Assembly (NCBI RefSeq): GCF_003790525.1
Contig: NZ_CP033636.1
Source of the DNA: Escherichia coli
Lineage (GTDB): Bacteria; Pseudomonadota; Gammaproteobacteria; Enterobacterales; Enterobacteriaceae
Length of the DNA: 64,000 nt
Reading direction: 5' to 3' (one strand)
Notes under the pieces: generated by a model
What the model was told of the DNA's origin: nothing
Seen by the model: the letters and a program-made list of their open reading frames with translations, nothing else
Databases searched by the model: none
Translations under genes and position numbers: made by a program
Shown here: piece by piece, positions 897 to 12,466 of the stretch
Numbering within the stretch: the stretch's first letter is position 1
Layout of the letters: every line of letters starts with the position of its first letter

Positions 897-950
897 TATG
901 ATTGGTTGAATACTCATTTTGAAGGCTAAAATCCAAAAAAGTGGATACAA

Positions 951-961
951 AAAGTTACTTT
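951..961. repeat. AAAGTWACTTT palindrome copy
   Basis: exact aaagttacttt, 65 bp from the previous copy. Confidence 0.6.
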
Positions 962-1117
962 TGCGTCATCCAGATGCACTGCCGCCATTTTGCATTCTGT
1001 ACGTTGGTTGCTTTCTCACTTGATGTCTCTTTTAACAGGCAAATTATCACTTTATCCGACCGGACCTTGTAGGCTGAATCCGTAGAATAAGGCTATAACC
1101 TATTCCCGGAGCATCAT

Positions 1118-3574
1118 ATGCGTAAAACTCTAATTGGCTGCATGGTTGCAACTGCCCTTGCTACTGTATCTTCGGCACATGCTCAGGTATTTAGCTACTC
1201 ATTTACAGATACCAATAAGGCTGTTCGGAATATCAAACCTGCAACACAAACATATCTTAATCCCGCTGGTGTTTTGACTCTGAACTTGATATCGGGTCTT
1301 GATCGGTACGAGCGAGTGACGGTCACACGAGACAGCGATAAAAAGGTTATGTATTCCTCCGTCTCGACCAAAACGAGCGTTGCAGATCGTATCGTTGCTG
1401 CCGATGGAACAGAATACTATGGAAAGGATATGGTTCTACCGGCGCTCGGAGAAGGGACCTTTACTGTAGTCAATGAAACTCTGGATATTCGCCAGACTGT
1501 AGTGAGCACATCTACTTATCATTTCATCGTTGATACAACTCCTCCACGCTATAAGAGTATTTATCCGAGTCAAAACGCAGGTTACGACATGGTACTTTCT
1601 GGGCCACTTTGGGAGTTGGGCCGAGGCGGTAGTGGCCAGTTTTCTATATTTGCAGACGGTATTGAGGATGCTAGTGGAATTGACAAGATCCGTCTTGTCA
1701 TTAAACGAAGTAATGGTTCTGTGGTCTCCGACAATAACCTGAGTTATGACACAGCCAATAAACGTGCGTTCTATCCGTGGATTAAAGATATGAACACCCA
1801 GGCTGGCATGCCCTCAAGTGATCTTGATGAAGAATTCACCTTCAATTTCATCGTTACGGACCTGGCAGGAAATACGCTTAACATTCCTCCCCAGCGGTTT
1901 TTATATGACGATCAAATGGGAGAATTTACGCCATTTGCAGTTCATGACTCACGTGTAAGCACCAGTGTTGTACCCGGCATTTCTTCGGGATACGTCCCGT
2001 TTAAACGAGGCCTTACAGTGCTGGAAAACCCCTACAAGTTGGTTATACGTATCCCAAGAACTAACTGGAAGCCATATCGAAATGGTGGCATGAGCATTAC
2101 CAATAACTATGGCGGAGTACAGGTCCTTTCCGAAGATGCCACCTATGTCTACGTGGAAGTTAAGCTGCCACAGGGTGCCTTAGATGGAAACTACTATAGA
2201 CCTGTGAATACATATCAATGGTCTGGAGGAGATCTTGGTCAGTATGCCAGCTGGCTCAACTGGGATCCTGCCTCTGTAAAGAGTCCGGCTTGGGGAAGTT
2301 CACCCATAGAACGACAAAAGGCTGATGGAACATGGTTCAACAGCGTAAACTGGAACCTGTTCAAGGCATCTGATATGCCTATAAAACTTACTAATATCCG
2401 ATTCAATGTACAGGCCAGGCCATATGATCAAAAAATCACTGGCGGAGCAACATGCAGTATTCCAGCTGGCTCAACAACCTGTACCGTCTCTTTGCCCCAG
2501 GATATTATAAATGGCACTACCGGTTATCTTCATAGTGGCTATGAAGTAAGGTCAACCACCGAAGCAACCTTCTTTGCCCCTATATGGGAGAATATAGCCT
2601 GGCATACACTGGGTCCCTCCGTCACTGGATTTGATTACAATGAAACCACCAACATTCTCCAGGTTTACGTGAATCAACCTGGAGATGGTTCATATTTCGA
2701 CCATGTTTATGTAAATCGAGTTTGGTTGTCAGATAAAAACCGTAACAACGCAGAAATAAGCGTAACCGGCAAACAAACAGGTAGAAATATGGCGTCTGGG
2801 AACTACACGTATGAGTTCAACATGAAAGAGGTACCAGAAGGCAGTTATAACGTGGTGATTAATGCCCAAGATACATTCAACAATACCGGTAACCTCCCTT
2901 ATCAAACAGTTGTCGTTGATAATACAGCACCATCTGTAAGTATTAGCTACGAAGGAAAACCGATCAGCAAAAACGTAACAGTATATGGGCTGGAGAACGT
3001 CCGTATACAGCTCACCGATGCTCTAACTAAACCATCCTTAAGCCGTATGACTCTTCGCGGTGGCCCTGTTTCTGATGCGGTGGAATTGTCTTGGGTGAAT
3101 CTGGGAAACAACCTGTATGCACCTAATTATCCCAAGATCTTTCCGTCTCTTAATGAAGGCGAAACATACACTCTCACAGTTCAGGCCAAAGATGAGATGA
3201 ACAACGTTAAAGAAAGCTCAGTCGAATTTAACTACCTTCCAAACAATCTCGTCAGGCTAGAGAATCTGAAAACCTTAGCTGTCAATGCTTCTCTCAAAAC
3301 ATCTGACAATACTGCTCTGGCTGTTCTGTATGCCAGCCAGCTGCGTAAAAAGGATGGTTCAATCGCTACAGGGCTTCAGGACGCAGTGCTTACTGTCCGT
3401 AAGGACGCTGCATTCGGCGTGACTGTAAATGGCGTTTCTGCGATGCCAGGTGAAAGCAAAGAGCTTCAACTGGATTTGGGGCTCGGGGACAGCCGTAGCT
3501 TTCCTATTTTCCCTGCTGTATCCGGCCTTACTGGCAGATCTGAGTTCATGATTAACATTGAAGAATTAAAATAA
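1118..3574 (+). CDS. secreted large Ig-like-domain protein, paralog A
   Basis: 818-aa ORF; signal-peptide-like N-terminus MRKTLIGCMVATALATVSSAHA; DxTxP motifs (VDTTPP, VDNTAPSVS) typical of bacterial Ig-like domains; conserved N- and C-terminal blocks shared with 7768..10188 and 13809..16199. Confidence 0.6.
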   Translation: MRKTLIGCMVATALATVSSAHAQVFSYSFTDTNKAVRNIKPATQTYLNPAGVLTLNLISGLDRYERVTVTRDSDKKVMYSSVSTKTSVADRIVAADGTEYYGKDMVLPALGEGTFTVVNETLDIRQTVVSTSTYHFIVDTTPPRYKSIYPSQNAGYDMVLSGPLWELGRGGSGQFSIFADGIEDASGIDKIRLVIKRSNGSVVSDNNLSYDTANKRAFYPWIKDMNTQAGMPSSDLDEEFTFNFIVTDLAGNTLNIPPQRFLYDDQMGEFTPFAVHDSRVSTSVVPGISSGYVPFKRGLTVLENPYKLVIRIPRTNWKPYRNGGMSITNNYGGVQVLSEDATYVYVEVKLPQGALDGNYYRPVNTYQWSGGDLGQYASWLNWDPASVKSPAWGSSPIERQKADGTWFNSVNWNLFKASDMPIKLTNIRFNVQARPYDQKITGGATCSIPAGSTTCTVSLPQDIINGTTGYLHSGYEVRSTTEATFFAPIWENIAWHTLGPSVTGFDYNETTNILQVYVNQPGDGSYFDHVYVNRVWLSDKNRNNAEISVTGKQTGRNMASGNYTYEFNMKEVPEGSYNVVINAQDTFNNTGNLPYQTVVVDNTAPSVSISYEGKPISKNVTVYGLENVRIQLTDALTKPSLSRMTLRGGPVSDAVELSWVNLGNNLYAPNYPKIFPSLNEGETYTLTVQAKDEMNNVKESSVEFNYLPNNLVRLENLKTLAVNASLKTSDNTALAVLYASQLRKKDGSIATGLQDAVLTVRKDAAFGVTVNGVSAMPGESKELQLDLGLGDSRSFPIFPAVSGLTGRSEFMINIEELK

Positions 3575-3930
3575 AGCAGGGCTGTTTTGCTGAAGCACAA
3601 CGGCCGCCTTCTGATGCGCCGTAGCCCATGTTGTTGCAAATCAGTCCGACGTTCATTGCGTAAGTAACGCTTACTGCGGACCATGGTAGTGATTAGACTC
3701 ACTACCATGGTCATTTCACCACATATCTTCTCTGCATTGCTCTTGTTGGGCAGACTAGTAACTCGTCACTAAATTGCAGCTTTTGTCTTGCTAAGTCGCT
3801 GGTATAACTGCACTACGAAATCGTCAAAAGATTTTATCCCTCATGTAGATCCAATAAATGATCCCAAAGGTGCCAGAGAGTACAAAGAAGATCCCGGTAC
3901 GCTGTAGGCCGCATGGTTACTGGGCTGGAG

Positions 3931-4470
3931 CATTGTCACTGACAACAGTAGCGACATAAGTGACAACGGGAGTGACTTAAAAGACAATGGTAGAGACTAT
4001 TTCGACGTTGGTAATGATTTTAAGTGACAATGGTAGTGAGGTTAGACTTAAACTTCCACTGTGAGGTAAGGTGACTCGCATTATTTAAATAAATCATTAC
4101 TTTCAATTACTTGCGACACGAGTCTGCATGTATGCTTCTATTTCTCAAAAATTTATCCACCGAAAATGCCTGTGGCTGTGATTTAGCTTTGACGACAGTT
4201 TTTATCAGGGAGGCAAGTTGAGACCTGTATAAGAACTAAGCATTTATTTATCCCCATTTTCCACAAGGTAGTTCCAATAATTAGTACCTTAGTGTTCCTG
4301 ATAGATCAAAAGAGATCCCCGCTGCCTCCAGGCCAGACGGCACAAGGCCTGAGACGTGATCAGTGACAACAGTAGTGATTATTTTGACATTAGTAGTGAT
4401 TATTATAACGTTGGTAATGAGTTTTTTGACATCAGTAGTGATCAGAGCGACAATAGTAGTGACTTTTCAT
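3931..4470. repeat. upstream iteron clusters, candidate oriV
   Basis: two clusters (about 3931-4080 and 4360-4470) of direct repeats of the form TGACAAYRGTAGTGA at roughly 20-bp spacing, flanking an AT-rich stretch and a DnaA-box-like site, immediately upstream of repA. Confidence 0.65.
4153..4161. promoter_or_regulatory. DnaA-box-like site
   Basis: ttatccacc, one mismatch from the TTATCCACA consensus, between the iteron clusters. Confidence 0.4.
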
Positions 4471-4681
4471 TAGATCTTTTTAACTTGATCTGATCCGTTG
4501 TTGATAAGAGTTGCAGGTCATTGTATGCAAAGAGTTTTTGCCAAGTTTTAATGAGTGGAGTCGTTTTTTTAGGTAGAACTTATGCACAGATATGGATCAT
4601 CACAATGATCCATCCAGTGACATAGAGTTCGCTGGGGCTTACTATTCACCAATCTGTTTACACATTCAGTGATAACTTATT

Positions 4682-5770
4682 ATGACTAAAGAGAAAGATA
4701 CTGAGCAGCAGGACCTGGTCACCAGGGCTTTCTCTGTTAGAGAGAAAGAATCAGGTAAAGACATCATTTTGCGTCCTAACAGCAACCGTACGGTGCAGTC
4801 TATTGCTTTGATGCGGCTCGGGCTGTTCGTCCCATCACCAAAGAGTGTGGGGCGTCAAAATCGGGAATATAAAACGGTTGGCTTTGACGCAACGAAAGAG
4901 TTACAGACGCTCTCTTTAATGGAGAGCGAGGGGTTCACCAATATTTCAATTGTCGGTGAGCGTCTTAATATGTCAGTAGATTTTAAGACGTGGATGGGCA
5001 TCATTCGAACCTATGCCAATCATCCGATTAACAATGACACGATAAGCTTAAAATTCACTGAATTCCTCAAGCTATGTACGCCTGAAAATTATCGCTCATC
5101 TACAGCGTCCAGAAAACGTATAGACGCCTCCTTACGCAGGTTAGCATCCGTTACCTTGTCGTTCACCAGTAATAACTCGTCCAAAGTCTATACAACGCAT
5201 CTGGTACAGTCTGCCCTGTTAGACCCGGAATCAGATCAGGTTGTCCTTCAGGTTGATCCTAAGATTTTCGAGCTCTATCAATACGATCATAAGGTTTTGA
5301 TGCAGCTGAAGGCAATTAAGGAGTTGGCCAAGAAGGAAAGCGCCCAGGCTCTCTATACGTTCATAGAGTCATTACCGCCAAATCCTATACCGATATCCCT
5401 TACTCGGCTGAAAAATCGTCTGAACCTCAAAACACGAGCAAATAGTCAGAATGCTACCGTGAGAAAGGCTCTTGAAGAGTTGGCATCGATAGGATACCTC
5501 AAGTACACCGAAATTAAGAAAGACGGAAAAGTATACTTCCAGATTCATAAGCGGGATCCCGATCTGAATTTGAACAATACTCAGCCTCCTTTAGAAGTGG
5601 TTGAAGATGAAGAAGAGAACTCAGGGTCTTCTGTTTTAGAAGGTGAGTTATGCCCACCAGCTGACCCGATTGACGGCGATGATGTTCTTACCGTCCATGA
5701 TTTAACCGCTGAAGAACTGCGCTATATTCGTAGTCTTCGAAGCCAGAAAAAGAACAGCAACGCCAGCTAA
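4682..5770 (+). CDS. repA: iteron-type replication initiator RepA, RepFIB/RepHI1B-like
   Basis: 362-aa ORF; blocks VQSIALMRLGLFVP, DFKTWMGII and RESAQALYTFIESLP match the RepFIB-type RepA family as I recall it; iterons on both sides. Confidence 0.8.
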   Translation: MTKEKDTEQQDLVTRAFSVREKESGKDIILRPNSNRTVQSIALMRLGLFVPSPKSVGRQNREYKTVGFDATKELQTLSLMESEGFTNISIVGERLNMSVDFKTWMGIIRTYANHPINNDTISLKFTEFLKLCTPENYRSSTASRKRIDASLRRLASVTLSFTSNNSSKVYTTHLVQSALLDPESDQVVLQVDPKIFELYQYDHKVLMQLKAIKELAKKESAQALYTFIESLPPNPIPISLTRLKNRLNLKTRANSQNATVRKALEELASIGYLKYTEIKKDGKVYFQIHKRDPDLNLNNTQPPLEVVEDEEENSGSSVLEGELCPPADPIDGDDVLTVHDLTAEELRYIRSLRSQKKNSNAS

Positions 5771-6010
5771 AGTTAACCCGGCGGTTTAGGCTCCGGGTGC
5801 TAAATTACTTCTTCGATTTTCGTTAGTCCCAGCCCGCTCTTTCACGTCAACGGTAATGAGTCAAAAGTCATTACCGTTGTCATTGTTCTCTACCACCCTA
5901 TGTAGATCGAGATTGCGAAATTCAACGCTTTCTCCTGAGTCACCTGTTAACACCCGGTTTCTACGCTTTACTTCATTGGCCAGTACATCCAACGGAAAAT
6001 ATCGTAACGG

Positions 6011-7600
6011 GGTGACAATGGCAGTGAGTTGACCCACTCACTACCATCGACATTCAAATCCCGGCTTCTCTGGTAGCTATAGTGACAATGGTAATGATGT
6101 GTACCTTACTGGCATTGTCATTGTCCTCCGAGTGTGCGTTCAGCTTTGGGAGGACACCGGAACTTAATGCGGCGAGTCACGGCCATTGTGAATCTCGATT
6201 GGATTGGCGAATACGGCTTCCGGTTGGGCCAGATGTCAATGGTTATGCTTCATCCAGCTCATTACTGTAGTCATTGCCGTTCAGTTGAGCTGATGCTCCT
6301 CTCATTCTATATGGCGACAACGGTAGTGAGCCCAGAAAGTGACTACCGTTGTCATGGCCGTCCAGTAGAGCGGGTCAACCTCTTAACTCACAGGGTGACA
6401 ACGGTATTGAGCCCAGAAAGTCACTACCGTTGTCATGGCCGTCTGGTTAAGCAGATCATCCTCTCAATTCACAGGGTGACAATGGTAGTGAGCCTATTAA
6501 GTCATTACCGTTGTCATTGCCATCCAGAAGAGCGGATGATCCTCTCAATTCATACGGCGACAATGGCAGTGAGCCCAGCAAGTCACTTCCGTTGTCATAG
6601 CCTTCCAGAAGAGCAGATGAGCCTCTTAATTAACAGGGTGACAACGGTAGTGAGCTCATTAAGTCATTACCATTGTCATGGACGTACAGCTGAGCTGCTC
6701 ATCCTCTCAATTCACACACCGACAATGGTAGTGAGCTATTAAAGTCACTACCATTGTCATATACGTCCAGTTAAGTGGACCATCCTCTCAATACACACGG
6801 TGACAACGGTAGTGAGCCATTAGAATCACTACCGTTGTCATTGCTTTTCAGGTGCACTGATAAGGCTCTCAATAGACACGACGACAATGGCAGTGAGCAA
6901 TTAGAGTCACTACCGTTGTCATTGCTTTCAGCTGAGCTGATAAGGTACGTCATTTACACGATGACAATGGCAGTGAGCCAATCGAGTCACTACCGTTGTT
7001 AATGCCGACCAACCGAGGGAAGGGTCCGCTCAAAGAACTGAGTGACAACAGTAGTGAGATCATCCAATCACTACCATTGTCAGCTTAAACCTGTAGGACG
7101 AAGAGGCTTGTCCGATAAAATGACGACAATGGAAATGAGCCTATCCATCACTACCACTGTCATTAAAGTCCAGCGGTTCAACGTTAATCAGTAGCTCCGG
7201 ATGACAATGGTTGTGAGTCAGGCAATTCCCAAGCATTAGGTGACAGCAGCGTAACACCTCTAAGCTCACTTCTGTTGTCAGGGGTTAGGGTATTGAGTCT
7301 CTACCGTCGTCAGTGTTTCTGAGACACCAGTATTGCAGATCACTACAATTGTCACTTAAATATCGACGGGGGAGTAGATGCAAGTGACTGGCTAACCAGT
7401 ACCAGTTTAGATTCAAAACGATCCCATCTTTGTGGATGCGCTTGAGTAAGCTCGTATGACGATATGTCAGAGAAGTGACAACAGGTGTGAGTTGCCGGAC
7501 TCACTCCCGTTGTCATCCCCGGTTGAAGGAAGAGAATCCCCGGGGCTGTATATTTACCAGGTATCCTTACTCAAGGGGTTCGACACTCACTCCCATTGTC
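6011..7600. repeat. downstream array of ~80-bp repeats, each with a palindromic RepA-site-like core
   Basis: about 18 units of GTGACAAYGGTAGTGAG-N7-9-TCACTACCRTTGTCA separated by related ~40-bp spacers; units decay toward 7600; same core as the upstream iterons. Confidence 0.8.
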
Positions 7601-7653
7601 GTAATCAACGAGTATGCATTGTCTTTTGAAAGCATCGCTGGAAACGTACGATT

Positions 7654-7664
7654 AAAGTAACTTT
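7654..7664. repeat. AAAGTWACTTT palindrome copy
   Basis: exact aaagtaacttt between the repeat array and the 3' end of the 7768..10188 gene. Confidence 0.6.
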
Positions 7665-7767
7665 TCTTTCGGTTCTTCCTTGCGAATCTCTGAAGACGTA
7701 CTGGCTGATCGGAGTCGAGGAGGGCAGTAAAATTGAAGCCGTCAGTTTTACTGTCGGCTCCGGGTAG

Positions 7768-10188
7768 TTACTTCAACTCGTCGATCTGAATCATGAATTC
7801 TGAGGTGCCAACTTTCCCATTTTCGGAAGGATAAACGGGTAACAGAAGATTATCCCCCTGGCCCATATCTATTTGCACCTCAACTGACTCGCCTGGAGCC
7901 GCCTGTGCCCCATTAAATTTAATACCGAAGGCTGCATCCTTCCGCACAGTCAGCGTTGCGTTCTGGACCCCTTTAGCAATTTCTCCATTTGTCTTACGCA
8001 GAACGTTAGTGGACAGGTACGCAAGTGGTACGCCATCTGTCGTTTTGAGAGGTGAACTGACCGACAATGTGCGTAGATTATGTAACTGCACAAGGTTATT
8101 CGGTAGATAACTGAACTTCTGAGTATAGGTTTTGGTATTCGACTGACTATCGGCAACTGTTACGCTAATTGAATAATTTTCAGATGGTTCGAAATTTGGG
8201 AACAGCCTCGGATACTCAGGCATGTATGTATCTTTGCCTGCCGGTGACCACGTAAGCTCAACGTTATCAGCTGTGGGGCCACCTACGAGCTGAAGACGGG
8301 TTATCCTCGGGGTTGTCAGATTATCTGCCAGAGCGATCCTGAGGTTCTCCAGGCCGTACACTACCGTATCGTCTTTTACCGGCTTTCCGTCGAATGTTAT
8401 GGCCACTGTCGGAGGAGTGTTATCCAGAGCAATTTCTCCGAAAGTTTTATTGGTCTGGTTCTGGAAGAAGTCCCTGATGTTGACCTCAACGTTGTATTTT
8501 CCTTCAGACTGACGGGATAAATCATAAGCAATCGTGTAGTTACCTGAGATACGAGATTTGATTACGCCTGTTGGTGACATCCGGGTACCGGTGTTCTTAT
8601 CGGAAAGATAAAATTCCCTCAATGAGACCGAGTCGAACCAGTTACCATCGCCTTCAAGTGACGCCAGTACATCCAGCTGCTTGTTAGTCTCGTCATATGA
8701 TATCGAGTTTATTACCGGCAGTTGTTTATTGTTCCAGCGTGTCATAATCCATTGCTCAGACCGCAAAATGGGATTGCTGATGCTGCGAACGAAGTAAAGG
8801 ATTCTATTGTAGCCCTGGGTACCCAAGGCCATATCAAACGTCTCAGGCGCTTCACACGAGGTTTTTCCTGCCGGAATGGTGCAGGTCGCCTTACCGCCGA
8901 TCTCCTGTGCAAAGGGCCGGGCTTCAACGTTAAAACGAAGTCGGGAAATTTTAATTGGCAGTCGTGATGAAGCCACACTCTCAAAATCCTTCCACTTAAC
9001 CCAGTTCCCCTTATCATCGAGGAAATCTACCCAGGTACCCGCAAATGCAGGCGTTTGGTTTGCAGATGGGTTTAGAACGAGGCTGTATGACGGATAATAC
9101 CCTCCCCACTGGCCAAAGTTCGCCATACGAGCCATATCCCCATTAATTGAGCCATAGGGAAGAGTCATTTCAACATAAGCATAAGTGCTGTCTACAGCTA
9201 TCTCTTTGGGGGCGGAATATTGATTGATGAACTGAAGCCCACCTTCTGAATAAGCACGGTAGTTAGATTTTGGGATCCGGTAGACTAATCGAATAGGGTT
9301 TTCGTTAACGACCATACCGGCTTTGTAAGCCGGATAATTAGAAACCCCGGGTACGACGCTGGAAGACGTATTTGGATCATGAACGGCCCACAGTGTCATC
9401 TCACCCAGCGTGTTGTCGTAGCGAAATTTTTGAGTTGGCAGCGTTCGGCTATTACCTGCGTTATCGAAGATAACAACTTTTGCAGTAAAGTCTTCATCCA
9501 GGTTGCTGTCTGGTATTCCGGTTCCCTTAACTGAATTCTTAGAGTAAGTGTGGTACATCTTTTGGCCGGATACGTCATACTGCATCTGTGTAGTGCTGTA
9601 GAGGCTACCGTCCTGCCTGTAAATATATATTAGGCCCTTATCAATACCATTTGCATCACTTACGCCCGAAGAGGTGAAGTCATACTGCCCCGTTGCCTCT
9701 AATCCAAGCTTCCACACGTCACCAGCGGTAGAGCCAGAACCAGTATTAGCGGTAAGAGCATTTGCCGCTGGAGGGGTGACATCAATTAGCCAGTTATAGT
9801 TATAGGTCGCTACAGGCTTCTGATTGAGATCTAACACGTTTATCTGAACGACAAATTTGCCTTCACCCAAAGCAGGCAAAGTTACTTTTTTGCCGTAGAA
9901 CTCACTACCGTCAGCAGCTGTTAGTCGGTCTGATACACCCGTCCGTGTAGTCGTAGTATTAAGAATGACAGTTCCAGTGTCTTTCGTGACTTTGACATTA
10001 ACGAAACGATCAAGACCTGAAATAAGTGTCAAAGTTACCGGTGATGCCGGATTAAGCATAAGACGAGAAGACGGGGCGTGGATCTCAATACCGTTCGTGT
10101 CCTTAAAGGCCGATTCATATATCTGAGCTGGGGCCTGAACAGACATACCGAGTCCGGCTACAGCAGTAATAAAAGCGAGATGTTTCAT
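7768..10188 (-). CDS. secreted large Ig-like-domain protein, paralog B
   Basis: 806-aa ORF; signal-peptide-like N-terminus MKHLAFITAVAGLGMSVQAPA; motifs IDVTPP and LDNTPPTVA; C-terminal block FSYLPNNLVQLHNLRTL...TVRKDAAFG shared with paralogs. Confidence 0.6.
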   Translation of the reverse strand: MKHLAFITAVAGLGMSVQAPAQIYESAFKDTNGIEIHAPSSRLMLNPASPVTLTLISGLDRFVNVKVTKDTGTVILNTTTTRTGVSDRLTAADGSEFYGKKVTLPALGEGKFVVQINVLDLNQKPVATYNYNWLIDVTPPAANALTANTGSGSTAGDVWKLGLEATGQYDFTSSGVSDANGIDKGLIYIYRQDGSLYSTTQMQYDVSGQKMYHTYSKNSVKGTGIPDSNLDEDFTAKVVIFDNAGNSRTLPTQKFRYDNTLGEMTLWAVHDPNTSSSVVPGVSNYPAYKAGMVVNENPIRLVYRIPKSNYRAYSEGGLQFINQYSAPKEIAVDSTYAYVEMTLPYGSINGDMARMANFGQWGGYYPSYSLVLNPSANQTPAFAGTWVDFLDDKGNWVKWKDFESVASSRLPIKISRLRFNVEARPFAQEIGGKATCTIPAGKTSCEAPETFDMALGTQGYNRILYFVRSISNPILRSEQWIMTRWNNKQLPVINSISYDETNKQLDVLASLEGDGNWFDSVSLREFYLSDKNTGTRMSPTGVIKSRISGNYTIAYDLSRQSEGKYNVEVNIRDFFQNQTNKTFGEIALDNTPPTVAITFDGKPVKDDTVVYGLENLRIALADNLTTPRITRLQLVGGPTADNVELTWSPAGKDTYMPEYPRLFPNFEPSENYSISVTVADSQSNTKTYTQKFSYLPNNLVQLHNLRTLSVSSPLKTTDGVPLAYLSTNVLRKTNGEIAKGVQNATLTVRKDAAFGIKFNGAQAAPGESVEVQIDMGQGDNLLLPVYPSENGKVGTSEFMIQIDELK

Positions 10189-10652
10189 TCTTATTCCCCT
10201 TTAGGTTTGGTGTTATTTTAAGCTTTTCCTAAAGGTCACTATGTTCGTAAAAGTATAAAAAACTTCTCCATATGGTGCTCGAAATTACAAATCTATAATT
10301 TGCCTTTCGACAAACCTTATTGTGCGTTCAGGACGTAAATCTTTCTTTTTGGAATTACATCTGACATTGCTGTGGTATCCAAACTGGCAACGATTGCAAA
10401 ACTTATAACATTAGCCTGAAACTATCGGCATCCACATATCGCATTAAGTGATGCTTTTACTTTGTGTAAAAAAGAATCAGGATAAATTAGGTATGACAGA
10501 TATAAATGCGTTAACGGACGGCATATATGAATCAAAACCTGGCGGTATTACGCCACCAGTCGAGAGGGGAGTGAACCTCAGTCAGTACGTCTACCTTCGT
10601 TCCGCAAGGCGCTTCTTGTTGTGAATTACAAACTGCCCTGGCGAGAACTGCA

Positions 10653-11264
10653 TCATTTCACCCCCAGCAACACACGTGCCTCTTCAACGGTTTGCCACGA
10701 AGGCATTGCTACGCCAGATTGACTGCCGTTGCCTCTGCGCTCACCGGTGTCACATTCTACATAAAGACGCATCAGCATCGCTTCTATTTCAGCGGCCCGG
10801 CTATTATCCATTACCAGTTCTGCTGCGCGTCGTAGCTGTTCTGGAATGTCATTCCACATTCCCGCACCACTTCTGTCTTTGTTAGTGAGCAAGTCTTCAA
10901 TAGCAGATGAAGCCATGTTAAGCAGGTCAGCCGAAACTAAAGGCATCGGCGGGGCGGTATAGAGGATTCGACGTCTTCCGCGTCTGTCTGGATCGTATTT
11001 ATCATAAAAAGCTTTGTTCACATCTTCCCAGTGCCACTGAAGTTGCCCGGTTGCGTCATGGTGGCAAAACTCGCACTGATAAACAGGCGCAATCGACATA
11101 ACTGCCTTTCCAATACGTGCCAGTACAGCAACTTCGTCAGCTCTAAGACTCATTGCTTCGCTTGGGTTACTACCCTCGGAAAATTCCAAAATTTGTTCAA
11201 TACGTTCTGGTGTGAAAGTGGTCATAGGCTTTGAAAACATATTTTTTCCAGTTGTGCTTACCAT
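10653..11264 (-). CDS. hypothetical protein, last gene of a minus-strand four-gene cluster
   Basis: 203-aa ORF downstream of the methyltransferase gene on the same strand; start codon uncertain. Confidence 0.45.
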   Translation of the reverse strand: MVSTTGKNMFSKPMTTFTPERIEQILEFSEGSNPSEAMSLRADEVAVLARIGKAVMSIAPVYQCEFCHHDATGQLQWHWEDVNKAFYDKYDPDRRGRRRILYTAPPMPLVSADLLNMASSAIEDLLTNKDRSGAGMWNDIPEQLRRAAELVMDNSRAAEIEAMLMRLYVECDTGERRGNGSQSGVAMPSWQTVEEARVLLGVK

Positions 11265-11284
11265 ATCATCAGGCCTTAAGAGCG

Positions 11285-11548
11285 TTAGCGAATAATTAAC
11301 AGGTCAGGACCAAAACTAAATCCTTCCCCCATACGGTCTTCATGACGGGAGACATATGCCTTACCGTATTTCTCCAGATCCTGTAAGCGATCTTTTGCCA
11401 GATTCCACGAGTATTCCTGGCCCCACACGGGTCCGTCACGCCCGTCAAAGCGGTCAGGTTTACAATTTGCTTTCAGAAGTGCGTAGACATGCTCCAGCGT
11501 GGGTAGCTGCAAAGCACTATTAGCCTGAGAAACGGCAGTATGCGTCAT
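11285..11548 (-). CDS. hypothetical small protein
   Basis: 87-aa ORF packed between neighbouring minus-strand genes. Confidence 0.4.
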   Translation of the reverse strand: MTHTAVSQANSALQLPTLEHVYALLKANCKPDRFDGRDGPVWGQEYSWNLAKDRLQDLEKYGKAYVSRHEDRMGEGFSFGPDLLIIR

Positions 11549-11641
11549 TTCTGTTCACTCTTTATTGATTTAGTCAGTTAAGCCGGTCAGGTAACTTTAA
11601 CCGGCTACTCGTATTAAGATTTCTTTCCGGTTGCTTGTCAG

Positions 11642-12466
11642 TTAGCGGCGAAGATCAATTTCAAGGCGGGCTGTTTTGACCTTTGTTCCGGACTCCCTAA
11701 ATGTATCATCCGGAAGAGGCGAAATTTGTCCGCCAAGTTGTTTGACTCGCTCCCTGAGCGCTTTTGTCAGTGTGTCTTCCCGGAACAATACCCCAGCTGA
11801 CAGAATGGCCTGTAAGCGACCTCGCTTAGCGAGCATTGCGATGGCATGCATGACATGTTTAACGTCAGAGCGTTTAAGGAATGGTGGATTCATAACGATA
11901 ACATCAAAAGTTTCATCGGGCTGGTACCCAAGAAAGTCGGTATGCACCAGCTCGGCCCCTGTGCTAAGGACACTATCGTTCTTCACTGCAAGGAATCGCT
12001 CATCGTTCAATTCGATCCCGGTAATCAATGCATCCGGAGCCGCCAGTTTTAAGGCTTTCAGAATGCGGCCATCACCAAACTCAGGCTCCAGAACACGTTC
12101 CCCGGCAGCTGGTTCAGCGCGTAGAACCATATCTGTGACTAAATTCTCAGGGGTAGGGAAGAAATTGAACAAATCACGTGGGATGTCGACCGAACCTGTC
12201 AGAATGATTTGCTCGATACGCTCAGCTGCATCCGCCGTAAAAATATGTGCCTGCTCTTTTCGGTTCCATTTGCCACCGGCAGCTTCCAGCACTTTGTTTG
12301 TCTTAACATAAATGCTGCGGTCGAGCTGGTCGGCCAGGAAAAGAAAGTTCCCTTCAGCACGGCAGCGAGATAAGACGTTCAGAACTTCAGTTGAGATTTG
12401 CATTAAAACTCCATTAAGAGGATTTACCCGCCTGGCGGCAGCGGGTTGGTTACTTAAACAGGACAA
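11642..12466 (-). CDS. N6-adenine DNA methyltransferase-like (SAM-dependent)
   Basis: 274-aa ORF with a glycine-rich SAM motif (LEPEFGDG) followed by catalytic NPPF (DVIVMNPPF). Confidence 0.65.
   Translation of the reverse strand: MSCLSNQPAAARRVNPLNGVLMQISTEVLNVLSRCRAEGNFLFLADQLDRSIYVKTNKVLEAAGGKWNRKEQAHIFTADAAERIEQIILTGSVDIPRDLFNFFPTPENLVTDMVLRAEPAAGERVLEPEFGDGRILKALKLAAPDALITGIELNDERFLAVKNDSVLSTGAELVHTDFLGYQPDETFDVIVMNPPFLKRSDVKHVMHAIAMLAKRGRLQAILSAGVLFREDTLTKALRERVKQLGGQISPLPDDTFRESGTKVKTARLEIDLRR

What the first reader, a model, noticed from the sequence alone, without database searches (positions are those of the whole stretch)
3931..7600. Replicon with a very long palindromic repeat array downstream of repA
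Besides short direct iterons upstream of repA, a 1.6-kb downstream array holds about 18 units. Each unit is a near-perfect 15-17-bp inverted repeat of the iteron core separated by related ~40-bp spacers, with units degenerating toward 7600. This is larger and more structured than a typical copy-control iteron set and could serve as incompatibility determinant, handcuffing locus or centromere-like site.
Basis: seen in the sequence. Interest (0 to 1): 0.5.

Follow-up and report, generated by a model that had tools for sequence, protein, structure and literature searches.

The report
IncHI2 replicon's known copy-control iteron array
This is the already described RepHI2 replication region of IncHI2 resistance plasmids such as R478. 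The large array after repA is a field of about 38 initiator-binding sites arranged head-to-head, and it most likely holds plasmid copy number down and sets incompatibility.

Summary
Window 3931-7600 is the RepHI2(A) replicon of IncHI2 plasmids, near-identical in more than 1,000 sequenced plasmids including R478.

- **Upstream of repA:** two sets of five direct 21-bp-spaced iterons flank an AT-rich region with DnaA-box-like sites.
- **Downstream of repA:** 38 copies of the same 15-bp iteron core. Thirty-two of them form 16 head-to-head pairs with a fixed 25-bp offset, and 12 pairs sit in 80-81-bp register.

The array is not new. The literature describes it as twelve 80-81-bp "long iterons" of R478, and the standard IncHI2 PCR typing assay targets it.

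My analysis refines the anatomy. The conserved module is the 40-bp head-to-head pair, not the 81-bp repeat. Two sister lineages keep 31-35 half-sites with the same 24-26-bp pairing, but have no 81-bp periodicity and no other detectable similarity.

The two arms of a pair vary independently, which points to protein binding rather than hairpin formation. RepHI2 belongs to the RepFIB/Rep_3 initiator family. In RepFIB, the downstream iterons alone displace the replicon in trans.

The best reading is a negative copy-control and incompatibility locus acting by initiator titration plus handcuffing. A centromere role is not supported.

The parts
3678..3713 (.). Isolated iteron-like palindrome (GGACCATGGTAGTGA-N6-TCACTACCATGGTCA), 104 bp after the stop of the upstream Ig-like gene. 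Possibly a terminator, an extra Rep site, or both.
   Evidence: half-sites at 3678+ and 3699-. RNA hairpin -25.1 kcal/mol, z -6.9. Present in other IncHI2 loci but not in L003 or L014.
3940..4039 (+). Origin iteron set 1: five direct repeats at 21-bp spacing.
   Evidence: (family D3/D5).
4040..4363 (.). AT-rich stretch between the two iteron sets, presumed to be the origin-opening region. It has DnaA-box-like 9-mers at 4153, 4248 and 4257 and GATC sites.
   Evidence: GC 0.37-0.42 across 4000-4399. DnaA-like sites; 11.5 GATC per kb in 3900-4680 against 3.5 per kb for the window. The same layout occurs in L003. The function is inferred.
4364..4462 (+). Origin/operator iteron set 2: five direct repeats at 21-bp spacing, just upstream of the repA leader.
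4682..5770 (+). repA (RepHI2), a 362-aa two-winged-helix initiator of the RepFIB/Rep_3 family.
   Evidence: Annotated 'IncHI-type plasmid replication initiator protein RepHI2'. About 50% identical to RepFIB/pHCM2 RepA. 26 of 29 aligned homologues hit Pfam Rep3_N. The AlphaFold2 model matches RctB domains 2-3 and the RepE dimer.
5845..6191 (.). repA-proximal, irregular part of the downstream field: pairs at 5845/5868, 6013/6038 and 6083/6106, plus a lone half-site at 6177.
6234..7162 (.). Twelve head-to-head iteron pairs in 80-81-bp register. Each unit is a 15-nt arm, a 10-nt gap, a 15-nt arm and a 41-nt spacer. The nine central units (6279-7005) form the well-conserved tandem repeat.
   Evidence: Pairwise identity among the nine core units: arms 88-90%, gap 64%, spacer 56%.
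7202..7601 (.). Degenerate tail: lone half-sites at 7202(+), 7266(-), 7298(-), 7340(-) and 7587(-), and one pair at 7476/7501.
   Evidence: Other IncHI2 plasmids carry IS2 or ISKpn18 insertions in this tail.

Best explanation
The region is the RepHI2 iteron replicon of IncHI2 plasmids.

**Origin (inferred).** RepA monomers bind the ten in-phase (21-bp-spaced) direct iterons that flank the AT-rich, DnaA-box-like stretch upstream of repA, and replication starts there.

**Control locus.** The 1.75-kb field downstream of repA is the replicon's negative control and incompatibility locus. It corresponds to F incC, P1 incA and the RepFIB E-K iterons. It carries about 38 copies of the same RepA site, on average closer to consensus than the origin iterons.

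**Mechanism (inferred).**
- The field soaks up initiator (titration).
- Through RepA-RepA bridges it pairs with origin iterons, in cis and on sister or incoming plasmids (handcuffing).
- Together these hold a 200-300-kb plasmid near one copy per chromosome and exclude other RepHI2 replicons.

**Functional module.** The module is a 40-bp head-to-head pair of full iterons, 25 bp centre to centre (about 2.4 helical turns, so out of phase). It most plausibly seats two RepA molecules facing each other in a geometry that binds but cannot open DNA.

**Origin of the 81-bp repeat.** The IncHI2-specific 81-bp periodicity is a by-product of tandem duplication of one such pair plus its spacer.

**What is shown and what is inferred.** Shown here: the anatomy, the conservation pattern and the family membership of RepA. 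Inferred from homology and literature: RepA binding to the array, titration, handcuffing and the effect on copy number.
For: 1. **Same site as the origin.** The array uses the origin's 15-bp core, massively enriched: 37 hits against 0.05 in shuffles.
2. **Selection falls on the half-sites.** Within the nine core units, arms are 88-90% identical, against 64% for the gap and 56% for the spacer.
3. **Conservation across lineages.** Two sister lineages (L003 pCFA1707-1 and L014) have repA about 76% identical at the DNA level. They keep 35 and 31 half-sites in 1.5 and 1.4 kb. Once half-sites are masked, BLAST finds no similarity between any two of the three fields.
4. **The pair geometry is conserved without tandem duplication.** Convergent neighbours at offset 22-27 number 10 and 9, against 1.1-1.3 expected (0 of 5,000 simulations). 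Divergent neighbours are scattered over 10-121 bp.
5. **The arms deviate independently.** In 35 pairs, 85 deviations are uncompensated and 5 are compensated, so selection is for protein binding and not base pairing.
6. **Array sites are nearer consensus.** Mean 0.7 mismatches for the 20 core half-sites, against 2.0 for the ten origin iterons.
7. **RepA family.** RepA is a Rep_3/RepFIB-family two-winged-helix initiator.
8. **Relatives share the layout.** RepFIB-family replicons and the syntenic R27 replicon also have downstream iteron clusters in mixed orientation.
9. **Experimental precedent.** In RepFIB the downstream block alone displaces the replicon while the upstream block does not, which was interpreted as handcuffing (PMC11983097).
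10. **Secondary literature on R478.** It says cloning experiments suggested the R478 long iterons are functionally active (PMC8490738).
11. **The origin is upstream.** The AT-rich stretch, the DnaA-box-like sites and the GATC cluster all lie upstream, not in the array.
Against: - No experiment on this array could be read. The primary papers (Page et al. 2001; Gilmour et al. 2004) are not held, so dispensability and copy-number effects for RepHI2 rest on analogy.
- About 38 sites is far more than in relatives (5-11), and simple control does not obviously need that many.
- A plasmid with only 7 units in register exists (L011), and IS elements sit in the tail of others. The exact number is therefore not critical.
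- Whether a pair binds two monomers, a dimer or something else is unknown.
- The partly conserved spacer motif ATCCTCTCAATTCACA is unexplained.
Confidence: 0.7

Rival explanations
1. Centromere-like partition site. The array would be bound by a partition adaptor, or by RepA acting as a tether, to segregate the plasmid. The Epstein-Barr virus (EBV) family of repeats is an analogy.
For: It is a large array of dyad-symmetric protein sites on a low-copy plasmid. This is a formal resemblance only, to the EBV family of repeats (recalled, not tested).
Against: No ParA/ParB/ParM/ParR genes lie in the roughly 50 kb examined around the replicon. IncHI2 backbones carry parAB and parMR elsewhere (PMC5955447). 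The sites are the initiator's own iterons. Homologous RepFIB downstream iterons act on replication.
Confidence: 0.05
2. Structure-forming element. The palindromes would act as RNA or DNA hairpins, for example as bidirectional terminators or mRNA stabilisers between the convergent repA and Ig-like genes, or as cruciforms.
For: Each unit folds into a strong hairpin if it is single-stranded (-18.6 to -29.6 kcal/mol, z -5.6 to -7.9). The array lies between convergent genes. The first pair at 5848-5879 fits a loose terminator pattern.
Against: Arm deviations are almost never compensated, 85 against 5. Most units lack a T-run, and terminator-like sites are no more frequent than in shuffles, 3 against 3.0. 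The arms match the origin iterons, which are direct repeats and cannot pair. There is no Rfam match. One or two hairpins would be enough for termination.
Confidence: 0.05
3. Positive or architectural replication element. The array would be a second origin, a replication enhancer, or a RepA-dependent fork barrier/terminus that makes replication unidirectional.
For: Arrays of tightly bound proteins can stall forks, and the array sits on one side of the presumed origin. This is inference only.
Against: The array has no AT-rich unwinding stretch or DnaA-box cluster (GC 0.45-0.51). The half-sites are out of phase (25 and 81 bp), unlike origin iterons (21 bp). The RepFIB counterparts act negatively.
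Confidence: 0.1
4. Largely neutral expansion. Only a few sites would matter, and the rest would be junk produced by slippage or unequal crossing-over.
For: The number of units in register varies (7, 12, 13, 14) among plasmids with the same or near-identical RepA. IS insertions in the tail are tolerated. The array diverges about five times faster than its flanks between R478 and the window.
Against: Three lineages keep 31-38 half-sites at 19-23 per kb while the DNA between them has turned over completely. Arms are much better conserved than spacers. Ten of 11 IncHI2 plasmids sampled hold 12-14 units.
Confidence: 0.1

Closest known systems
RepHI2A replicon of R478 (IncHI2): the 'long iterons' of Page et al. 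2001 and Gilmour et al. 2004
   Same: It is the same element. Outside the array, the window and R478 differ at about 0.3% of aligned positions, and the array differs by one 81-bp unit. The literature describes twelve 80-81-bp iterons about 500 bp from repHI2. The PCR replicon-typing target 'IncHI2 iteron' lies here.
   Different: Nothing essential differs. The window has 12 units in register by my count and R478 has 13. The reviews I could read call the 76-81-bp repeat the iteron. My analysis indicates that the conserved module is the 40-bp head-to-head pair of ordinary 15-bp iterons. I could not check whether the primary papers already say this.
RepFIB replicon (P307/F/pO157): origin iterons BCDD' and downstream control iterons E-K
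   Same: The initiator is homologous at about 50% identity. The layout is the same: origin iterons, rep, downstream iterons. The iterons share the half CTCACTAC. The downstream block is the replication-control and displacement determinant.
   Different: RepFIB-type relatives have only 5-11 downstream iterons in mixed orientation and few palindromic pairs. RepHI2 has about 38, mostly as fixed-offset head-to-head pairs.
F incC and P1 incA copy-control iteron clusters
   Same: Each is a second cluster of initiator sites downstream of rep that controls copy number negatively and exerts incompatibility by titration and handcuffing. This is established knowledge; FIA handcuffing is cited.
   Different: Those clusters have 5 and 9 sites. 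They are not organised as full-length head-to-head pairs, and they are not tandem 81-bp units.
39-mer negative-control sites of Vibrio cholerae chromosome 2 (RctB)
   Same: They are a class of roughly 40-bp initiator sites dedicated to inhibiting replication, distinct in role from the origin iterons (PMC3401445). RctB domains 2-3 are the best structural match to the RepHI2 model.
   Different: The 39-mers are unrelated in sequence to the 12-mer iterons and bind one RctB monomer. The RepHI2 sites are two full iterons in inverted orientation. This is an analogy of role only.
Rep-dimer operators of iteron plasmids (repE operator, pPS10, pSC101 inverted repeats)
   Same: They are inverted repeats derived from the iteron and bound by the initiator (statement in PMC3401445; the RepE dimer-operator structure 2z9o is a fold match).
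   Different: Operators are single inverted repeats of half-iterons that overlap the rep promoter. Here, full-length iterons form 16 pairs downstream of the gene.

Membership tests
RepHI2A replicon of IncHI2 plasmids | Near-identity to the R478 repHI2 gene and its flanking repeats | tested here: met
   There are 1,235 plasmid records with a match. RepA differs from R478 at 3 of 1,089 nt. The MOB-suite replicon type of the matching records is IncHI2A.
RepHI2A replicon of IncHI2 plasmids | About twelve 80-81-bp repeats roughly 500 bp from repHI2 | tested here: met
   Twelve pairs lie in 80-81-bp register at 6234-7162, starting 464 bp after the repA stop. The description is in PMC8490738.
Iteron replicon with a Rep_3/RepFIB-type initiator | Two-winged-helix (WH1-WH2) initiator | tested here: met
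   RepHI2 itself gives no Pfam or NCBIfam hit. However, 26 of 29 aligned homologues (38-88% identical) hit Rep3_N and 16 hit Rep3_C weakly. The AlphaFold2 model matches RctB domains 2-3 (E 3e-7) and RepE (E 4e-4).
Iteron replicon with a Rep_3/RepFIB-type initiator | Direct, in-phase iterons next to an AT-rich region with DnaA boxes | tested here: met
   Two sets of five iterons at 21-bp spacing. GC is 0.37-0.42 between them. DnaA-like 9-mers lie at 4153, 4248 and 4257.
Downstream copy-control/incompatibility iteron cluster (incC / incA / FIB E-K type) | A second cluster of the same initiator sites, outside the origin and downstream of rep | tested here: met
Downstream copy-control/incompatibility iteron cluster (incC / incA / FIB E-K type) | Dispensable for replication; deletion raises copy number; exerts incompatibility in trans | not testable with these tools
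   Only indirect support exists: the RepFIB experiments, and a secondary statement that cloning experiments suggested the R478 repeats are functionally active. The primary paper is not held.
Plasmid centromere (parS/parC type) | Adjacent to a partition operon and bound by its adaptor protein | tested here: not met
   No par genes appear in the annotated 50 kb around the replicon. The flanking genes encode Ig-like domain proteins.
Rep-dimer operator (autoregulatory inverted repeat) | An inverted repeat of the half-iteron overlapping the rep promoter | tested here: not met
   The array lies downstream of repA, its arms are full-length 15-bp cores, and there are 16 pairs.
Structured RNA or hairpin element | Base pairing maintained by compensatory change | tested here: not met
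   85 uncompensated against 5 compensated arm deviations in 35 pairs. No Rfam family matches.

The most novel reading that the evidence does not exclude
The 40-bp head-to-head iteron pair may be a distinct class of initiator site, not just two iterons that happen to be inverted. Its conserved 25-bp out-of-phase geometry would seat two RepA molecules facing each other in a bound but origin-incompetent complex specialised for handcuffing. That would make it a plasmid counterpart, in role, of the Vibrio chromosome 2 39-mers. Selection would then maintain about 30-40 such sites to clamp a very large plasmid at single copy. On this reading, the 'long iteron' of the textbooks is a duplication artefact around this module.
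Probability: 0.3. Interest if true: 0.45.

Novelty: already known. Interest (0 to 1): 0.2.

Why it matters
IncHI2 plasmids are major carriers of mcr, blaCTX-M and metal-resistance genes. This array defines their incompatibility group and is what PCR replicon typing detects. Showing that the conserved functional unit is the head-to-head iteron pair has two practical uses. It gives a defined, compact target for incompatibility-based plasmid-curing cassettes, of the kind built from the FIB downstream iterons. It also gives a clean system for asking how site orientation and phasing separate the inhibitory from the initiating modes of a Rep protein. As a discovery it is incremental, because the element itself was described in 2001-2004.

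Tried and rejected
- **Primary papers.** I tried to read Page et al. 2001 and Gilmour et al. 2004. Neither is held. What they say about the internal palindromes, or about deletion phenotypes, is therefore unverified.
- **Literature searches.** Searches for experiments on IncHI2 copy control or curing found nothing specific.
- **Direct family assignment of RepHI2.** Pfam, NCBIfam and PDB sequence searches with RepHI2 alone, and with its profile, gave nothing. Family assignment needed the homologues and a fold search.
- **Window against R478.** Comparing the two to test arm against spacer constraint was uninformative because divergence is too low: 7 of 570 against 22 of 1,426 positions.
- **Spacer motif.** ATCCTCTCAATTCACA occurs only inside the array, so it points to no second regulator site elsewhere.
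- **Promoter and terminator scans.** Counts were not above shuffles.
- **CRISPR-like array.** Rejected, because the spacers are related to one another and the repeats are the replicon's own iterons.
- **Coding reading.** The 202-aa ORF at 6134-6742 was rejected. It is a frame artefact of an 81-bp (27-codon) repeat.
- **Megablast identities.** Values of 93-96% across the array are artefacts of misregistered repeat alignments. A global alignment gives about 1.5% divergence.
Full report
**What is there**

Window 3600-7800 holds a complete iteron-type replicon. The only substantial gene is repA at 4682-5770 on the + strand, 362 aa.

Upstream of repA there are two sets of five direct repeats at exactly 21-bp spacing, at 3940-4039 and 4364-4462. 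Their core is TGACAAYGGTAGTGA. Between the two sets lies an AT-rich stretch (GC 0.37-0.42) with DnaA-box-like 9-mers at 4153, 4248 and 4257. GATC sites are dense in this upstream region, 11.5 per kb across 3900-4680 against 3.5 per kb for the whole window.

Downstream of repA, the 1,997-bp gap before a convergent gene (stop at 7768) holds 38 copies of the same 15-bp core with at most 4 mismatches. Thirty-seven of them have at most 3 mismatches, against 0.05 in shuffles of the region and 5 in the remaining 59.8 kb of the window. Thirty-two of the 38 form 16 convergent pairs, each with a 15-nt arm, a gap of about 10 nt and a 15-nt arm (offset 23-25). Twelve of these pairs (6234-7162) are spaced 80-81 bp apart. 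TRF and the repeat finder pick out the nine best-conserved 81-bp copies at 6279-7005.

**Identity**

The region is 100% identical to many plasmids of Escherichia, Salmonella, Enterobacter, Citrobacter and Klebsiella typed IncHI2A. In all, 1,235 records match and 1,015 cover at least 80% of the query. In those records the gene is annotated 'IncHI-type plasmid replication initiator protein RepHI2'. A global alignment with the prototype R478 shows about 0.3% divergence outside the array and one extra 81-bp unit in R478.

The array is in the literature. One review cites 'up to even 76-bp' iterons in R478 (PMC4980987). [quoted passage not shown] It adds that cloning experiments suggested they are functionally active (PMC8490738).

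The widely used PCR replicon-typing assay for IncHI2 is labelled 'IncHI2 iteron' (PMC6206278). Its forward primer matches window 5929-5953 exactly. Its reverse primer matches the left arms of several units with 2-3 mismatches. The feature is therefore already known. The primary papers (Page et al. 2001; Gilmour et al. 2004) are not held.

**The initiator**

RepHI2 alone hits nothing in Pfam, NCBIfam or PDB sequence searches.
- It is about 50% identical to RepFIB-type and pHCM2-type RepA proteins.
- It is 38% identical to the Rep encoded at the syntenic position of the IncHI1 plasmid R27, which I take to be RepHI1B.
- Of 29 aligned family members, 26 hit Pfam Rep3_N (WH1) and 16 hit Rep3_C (WH2) weakly.
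- An AlphaFold2 model (mean pLDDT 71, confident over about residues 60-295) finds RctB domains 2-3 (5tbf, E 3e-7) and the RepE dimer-operator complex (2z9o, E 4e-4) as its best PDB matches.

RepHI2 is therefore a two-winged-helix iteron initiator. For this class it is established that monomers bind iterons. Dimers bind only inverted half-iterons and otherwise act negatively (as summarised in PMC3401445).

**What is conserved, and what that says about function**

Four results bear on this.

1. Within the nine core units, mean pairwise identity is 88-90% for the two arms. It is only 64% for the 10-nt gap and 56% for the 41-nt spacer.

2. Two sister lineages were compared with the window. L003 is Citrobacter freundii pCFA1707-1, and L014 is a contig from a Logan (public read-archive) assembly. 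Their RepA proteins are 85% and 88% identical to RepHI2, and repA plus origin are about 76% identical at the DNA level. Both have the same upstream layout and downstream fields of 35 and 31 half-sites in 1.5 and 1.4 kb, but no 81-bp periodicity. When half-sites are masked, BLAST with word size 7 finds no similarity between any two of the three downstream fields. The sites have been kept at 19-23 per kb while everything between them has turned over.

3. In these two non-tandem lineages, convergent neighbours cluster tightly at offsets of 24-26 bp. Ten and nine fall within 22-27 bp, against 1.1-1.3 expected under random placement (0 of 5,000 simulations). Divergent neighbours scatter from 10 to 121 bp. 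The conserved module is therefore the 40-bp head-to-head pair, and the IncHI2 81-bp repeat is a tandem duplication of one pair plus its spacer.

4. The two arms of a pair deviate from consensus independently. Across 35 pairs there are 85 uncompensated and 5 compensated deviations, and the C/T position agrees in only 22 of 35 pairs. This fits two separately read protein sites and argues against selection for hairpins. Every unit would nonetheless fold well if it were single-stranded.

The 20 core-array half-sites are also closer to consensus than the ten origin iterons, with a mean of 0.7 against 2.0 mismatches.

**Relatives**

RepFIB-family replicons (pHCM2, pSLT, an E. coli IncFIB plasmid, a Klebsiella IncFIB(K) plasmid and a Kosakonia plasmid) have their own iteron variants. 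These share the half CTCACTAC with the RepHI2 iteron. Each carries 5-11 downstream iterons in mixed orientation, with only occasional palindromic pairs. The R27 replicon has five upstream iterons and about ten downstream ones, mostly inverted relative to the origin set.

Downstream control iterons are thus a family trait. The expansion to 30-40 sites in fixed head-to-head pairs is specific to the RepHI2 clade.

**Mechanism**

Experimental evidence exists for the sister family. In the pO157 FIB replicon, the downstream EFGHIJ iteron block alone displaced the replicon in trans, and the upstream block did not. The authors interpret this as Rep-mediated handcuffing between downstream and origin iterons (PMC11983097).

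By homology of initiator, iteron and layout, I conclude that the RepHI2 array is the negative copy-control and incompatibility locus. It would act by binding RepA (titration) and by pairing with origin iterons in cis and in trans (handcuffing).

The geometry fits this reading, though this step is inference. Origin iterons are in phase at 21 bp, or two helical turns, as expected for wrapping and opening DNA. Array half-sites are 25 bp apart within a pair and pairs are 81 bp apart. The array has no AT-rich stretch (GC 0.45-0.51). It can therefore bind initiator without acting as an origin.

Whether a pair binds two monomers or a dimer is unknown. The arms are full-length iterons with outer ends 40 bp apart, so I favour two monomers facing each other.

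**Variation**

Among 11 IncHI2 plasmids sampled, the number of units in 80-81-bp register is:
- 12 in four plasmids, including the window;
- 13 in five plasmids, including R478;
- 14 in one plasmid;
- 7 in one plasmid.

In the sampled records the RepA protein is one of two accessions, WP_000159529.1 or WP_000159528.1. Two plasmids carry IS2 or ISKpn18 in the degenerate tail. Between R478 and the window, the array has diverged about five times more than its flanks: 29 of 1,996 positions against 7 of 2,171. The array is labile but held within a narrow range.

**Rivals**

- A centromere role is not supported. No par genes lie nearby, and the sites are the initiator's own.
- A hairpin, terminator or RNA role is contradicted by the lack of compensatory change, by terminator-like sites being no more frequent than in shuffles, and by the absence of an Rfam match.
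- A fork-barrier or enhancer role cannot be excluded computationally, but nothing here specifically supports it.
- Neutral expansion is contradicted by the conservation pattern.

**Verdict**

This is a real, well-structured and functionally constrained feature, but it is already known. It is the RepHI2A 'long iteron' array of IncHI2 plasmids.

The modest new point is that the conserved unit is a head-to-head pair of ordinary iterons with a fixed 25-bp offset, not an 81-bp iteron. I could not check this point against the primary papers.

Noticed in passing
window 3678-3713: A perfect 15-bp iteron-like palindrome with a 6-nt loop (TGACCATGGTAGTGA arms) sits 104 bp after the stop of the upstream Ig-like gene and 227 bp before the first origin iteron. 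It is conserved in other IncHI2 plasmids but absent from the sister lineages L003 and L014. It could insulate the origin from read-through, serve as an extra Rep site, or both.
   Followed up: partly
window 1118-3574 (+) and 7768-10188 (-); L020 (R27) 926-3085, 7630-8226, 9499-11883: The replicon is bracketed by two paralogous genes of about 810 aa encoding Ig-like (DUF4165) domain proteins, in inverted orientation. Their N- and C-termini are similar (...EFMINIEELK and ...EFMIQIDELK). The syntenic Rep gene of the IncHI1 plasmid R27 also lies among Ig-like genes. A third Ig-like gene lies about 6 kb further along in IncHI2.
   Followed up: no
window 5929-5953, and the left arms at 6311-6979: The standard PCR replicon-typing primers for IncHI2 ('IncHI2 iteron', nominal 644-bp product) anneal here. 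The forward primer matches exactly. The reverse primer matches several repeat units with 2-3 mismatches, so multiple or variable products are possible when unit number changes.
   Followed up: partly
window 6134-6742, and L023 512-688: Because 81 bp is 27 codons, the array generates long mechanical ORFs, such as one of 202 aa with a repeating peptide. Some public annotations call small 'hypothetical proteins' between repA and the Ig-like gene. These are almost certainly not genes.
   Followed up: partly
window about 7298-7476 (equivalent sites in L013 and L021): Other IncHI2 plasmids carry ISKpn18 or IS2 inserted in the degenerate tail of the array. One plasmid (L027) is truncated by a class 1 integron just beyond the array. 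The tail tolerates disruption.
   Followed up: partly
window 4682-5770: RepHI2 and its two closest relatives (85-88% identical) fall below threshold for Pfam Rep_3 and for every NCBIfam HMM, although relatives about 50% identical hit Rep3_N. The clade also has a longer acidic linker (about residues 299-341, pLDDT below 50) before a shared C-terminal helix.
   Followed up: partly
window 6377-6797 (spacers of the core units): A motif, ATCCTCTCAATTCACA, is partly conserved in the 41-nt spacers of six units and occurs nowhere else in the 64-kb window. It is absent from the sister lineages. Its significance, if any, is unknown.
   Followed up: partly
L014 7283-7322: In the sister lineage, a perfect divergent pair of consensus iterons lies beyond the HNH gene, about 0.8 kb outside the main downstream field.
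   Followed up: no
L019 (R27) 25338-28465: A 3.1-kb stretch without any annotated gene follows the parA/parB genes of R27. It was not examined. It might hold the partition site or another repeat array.
   Followed up: no
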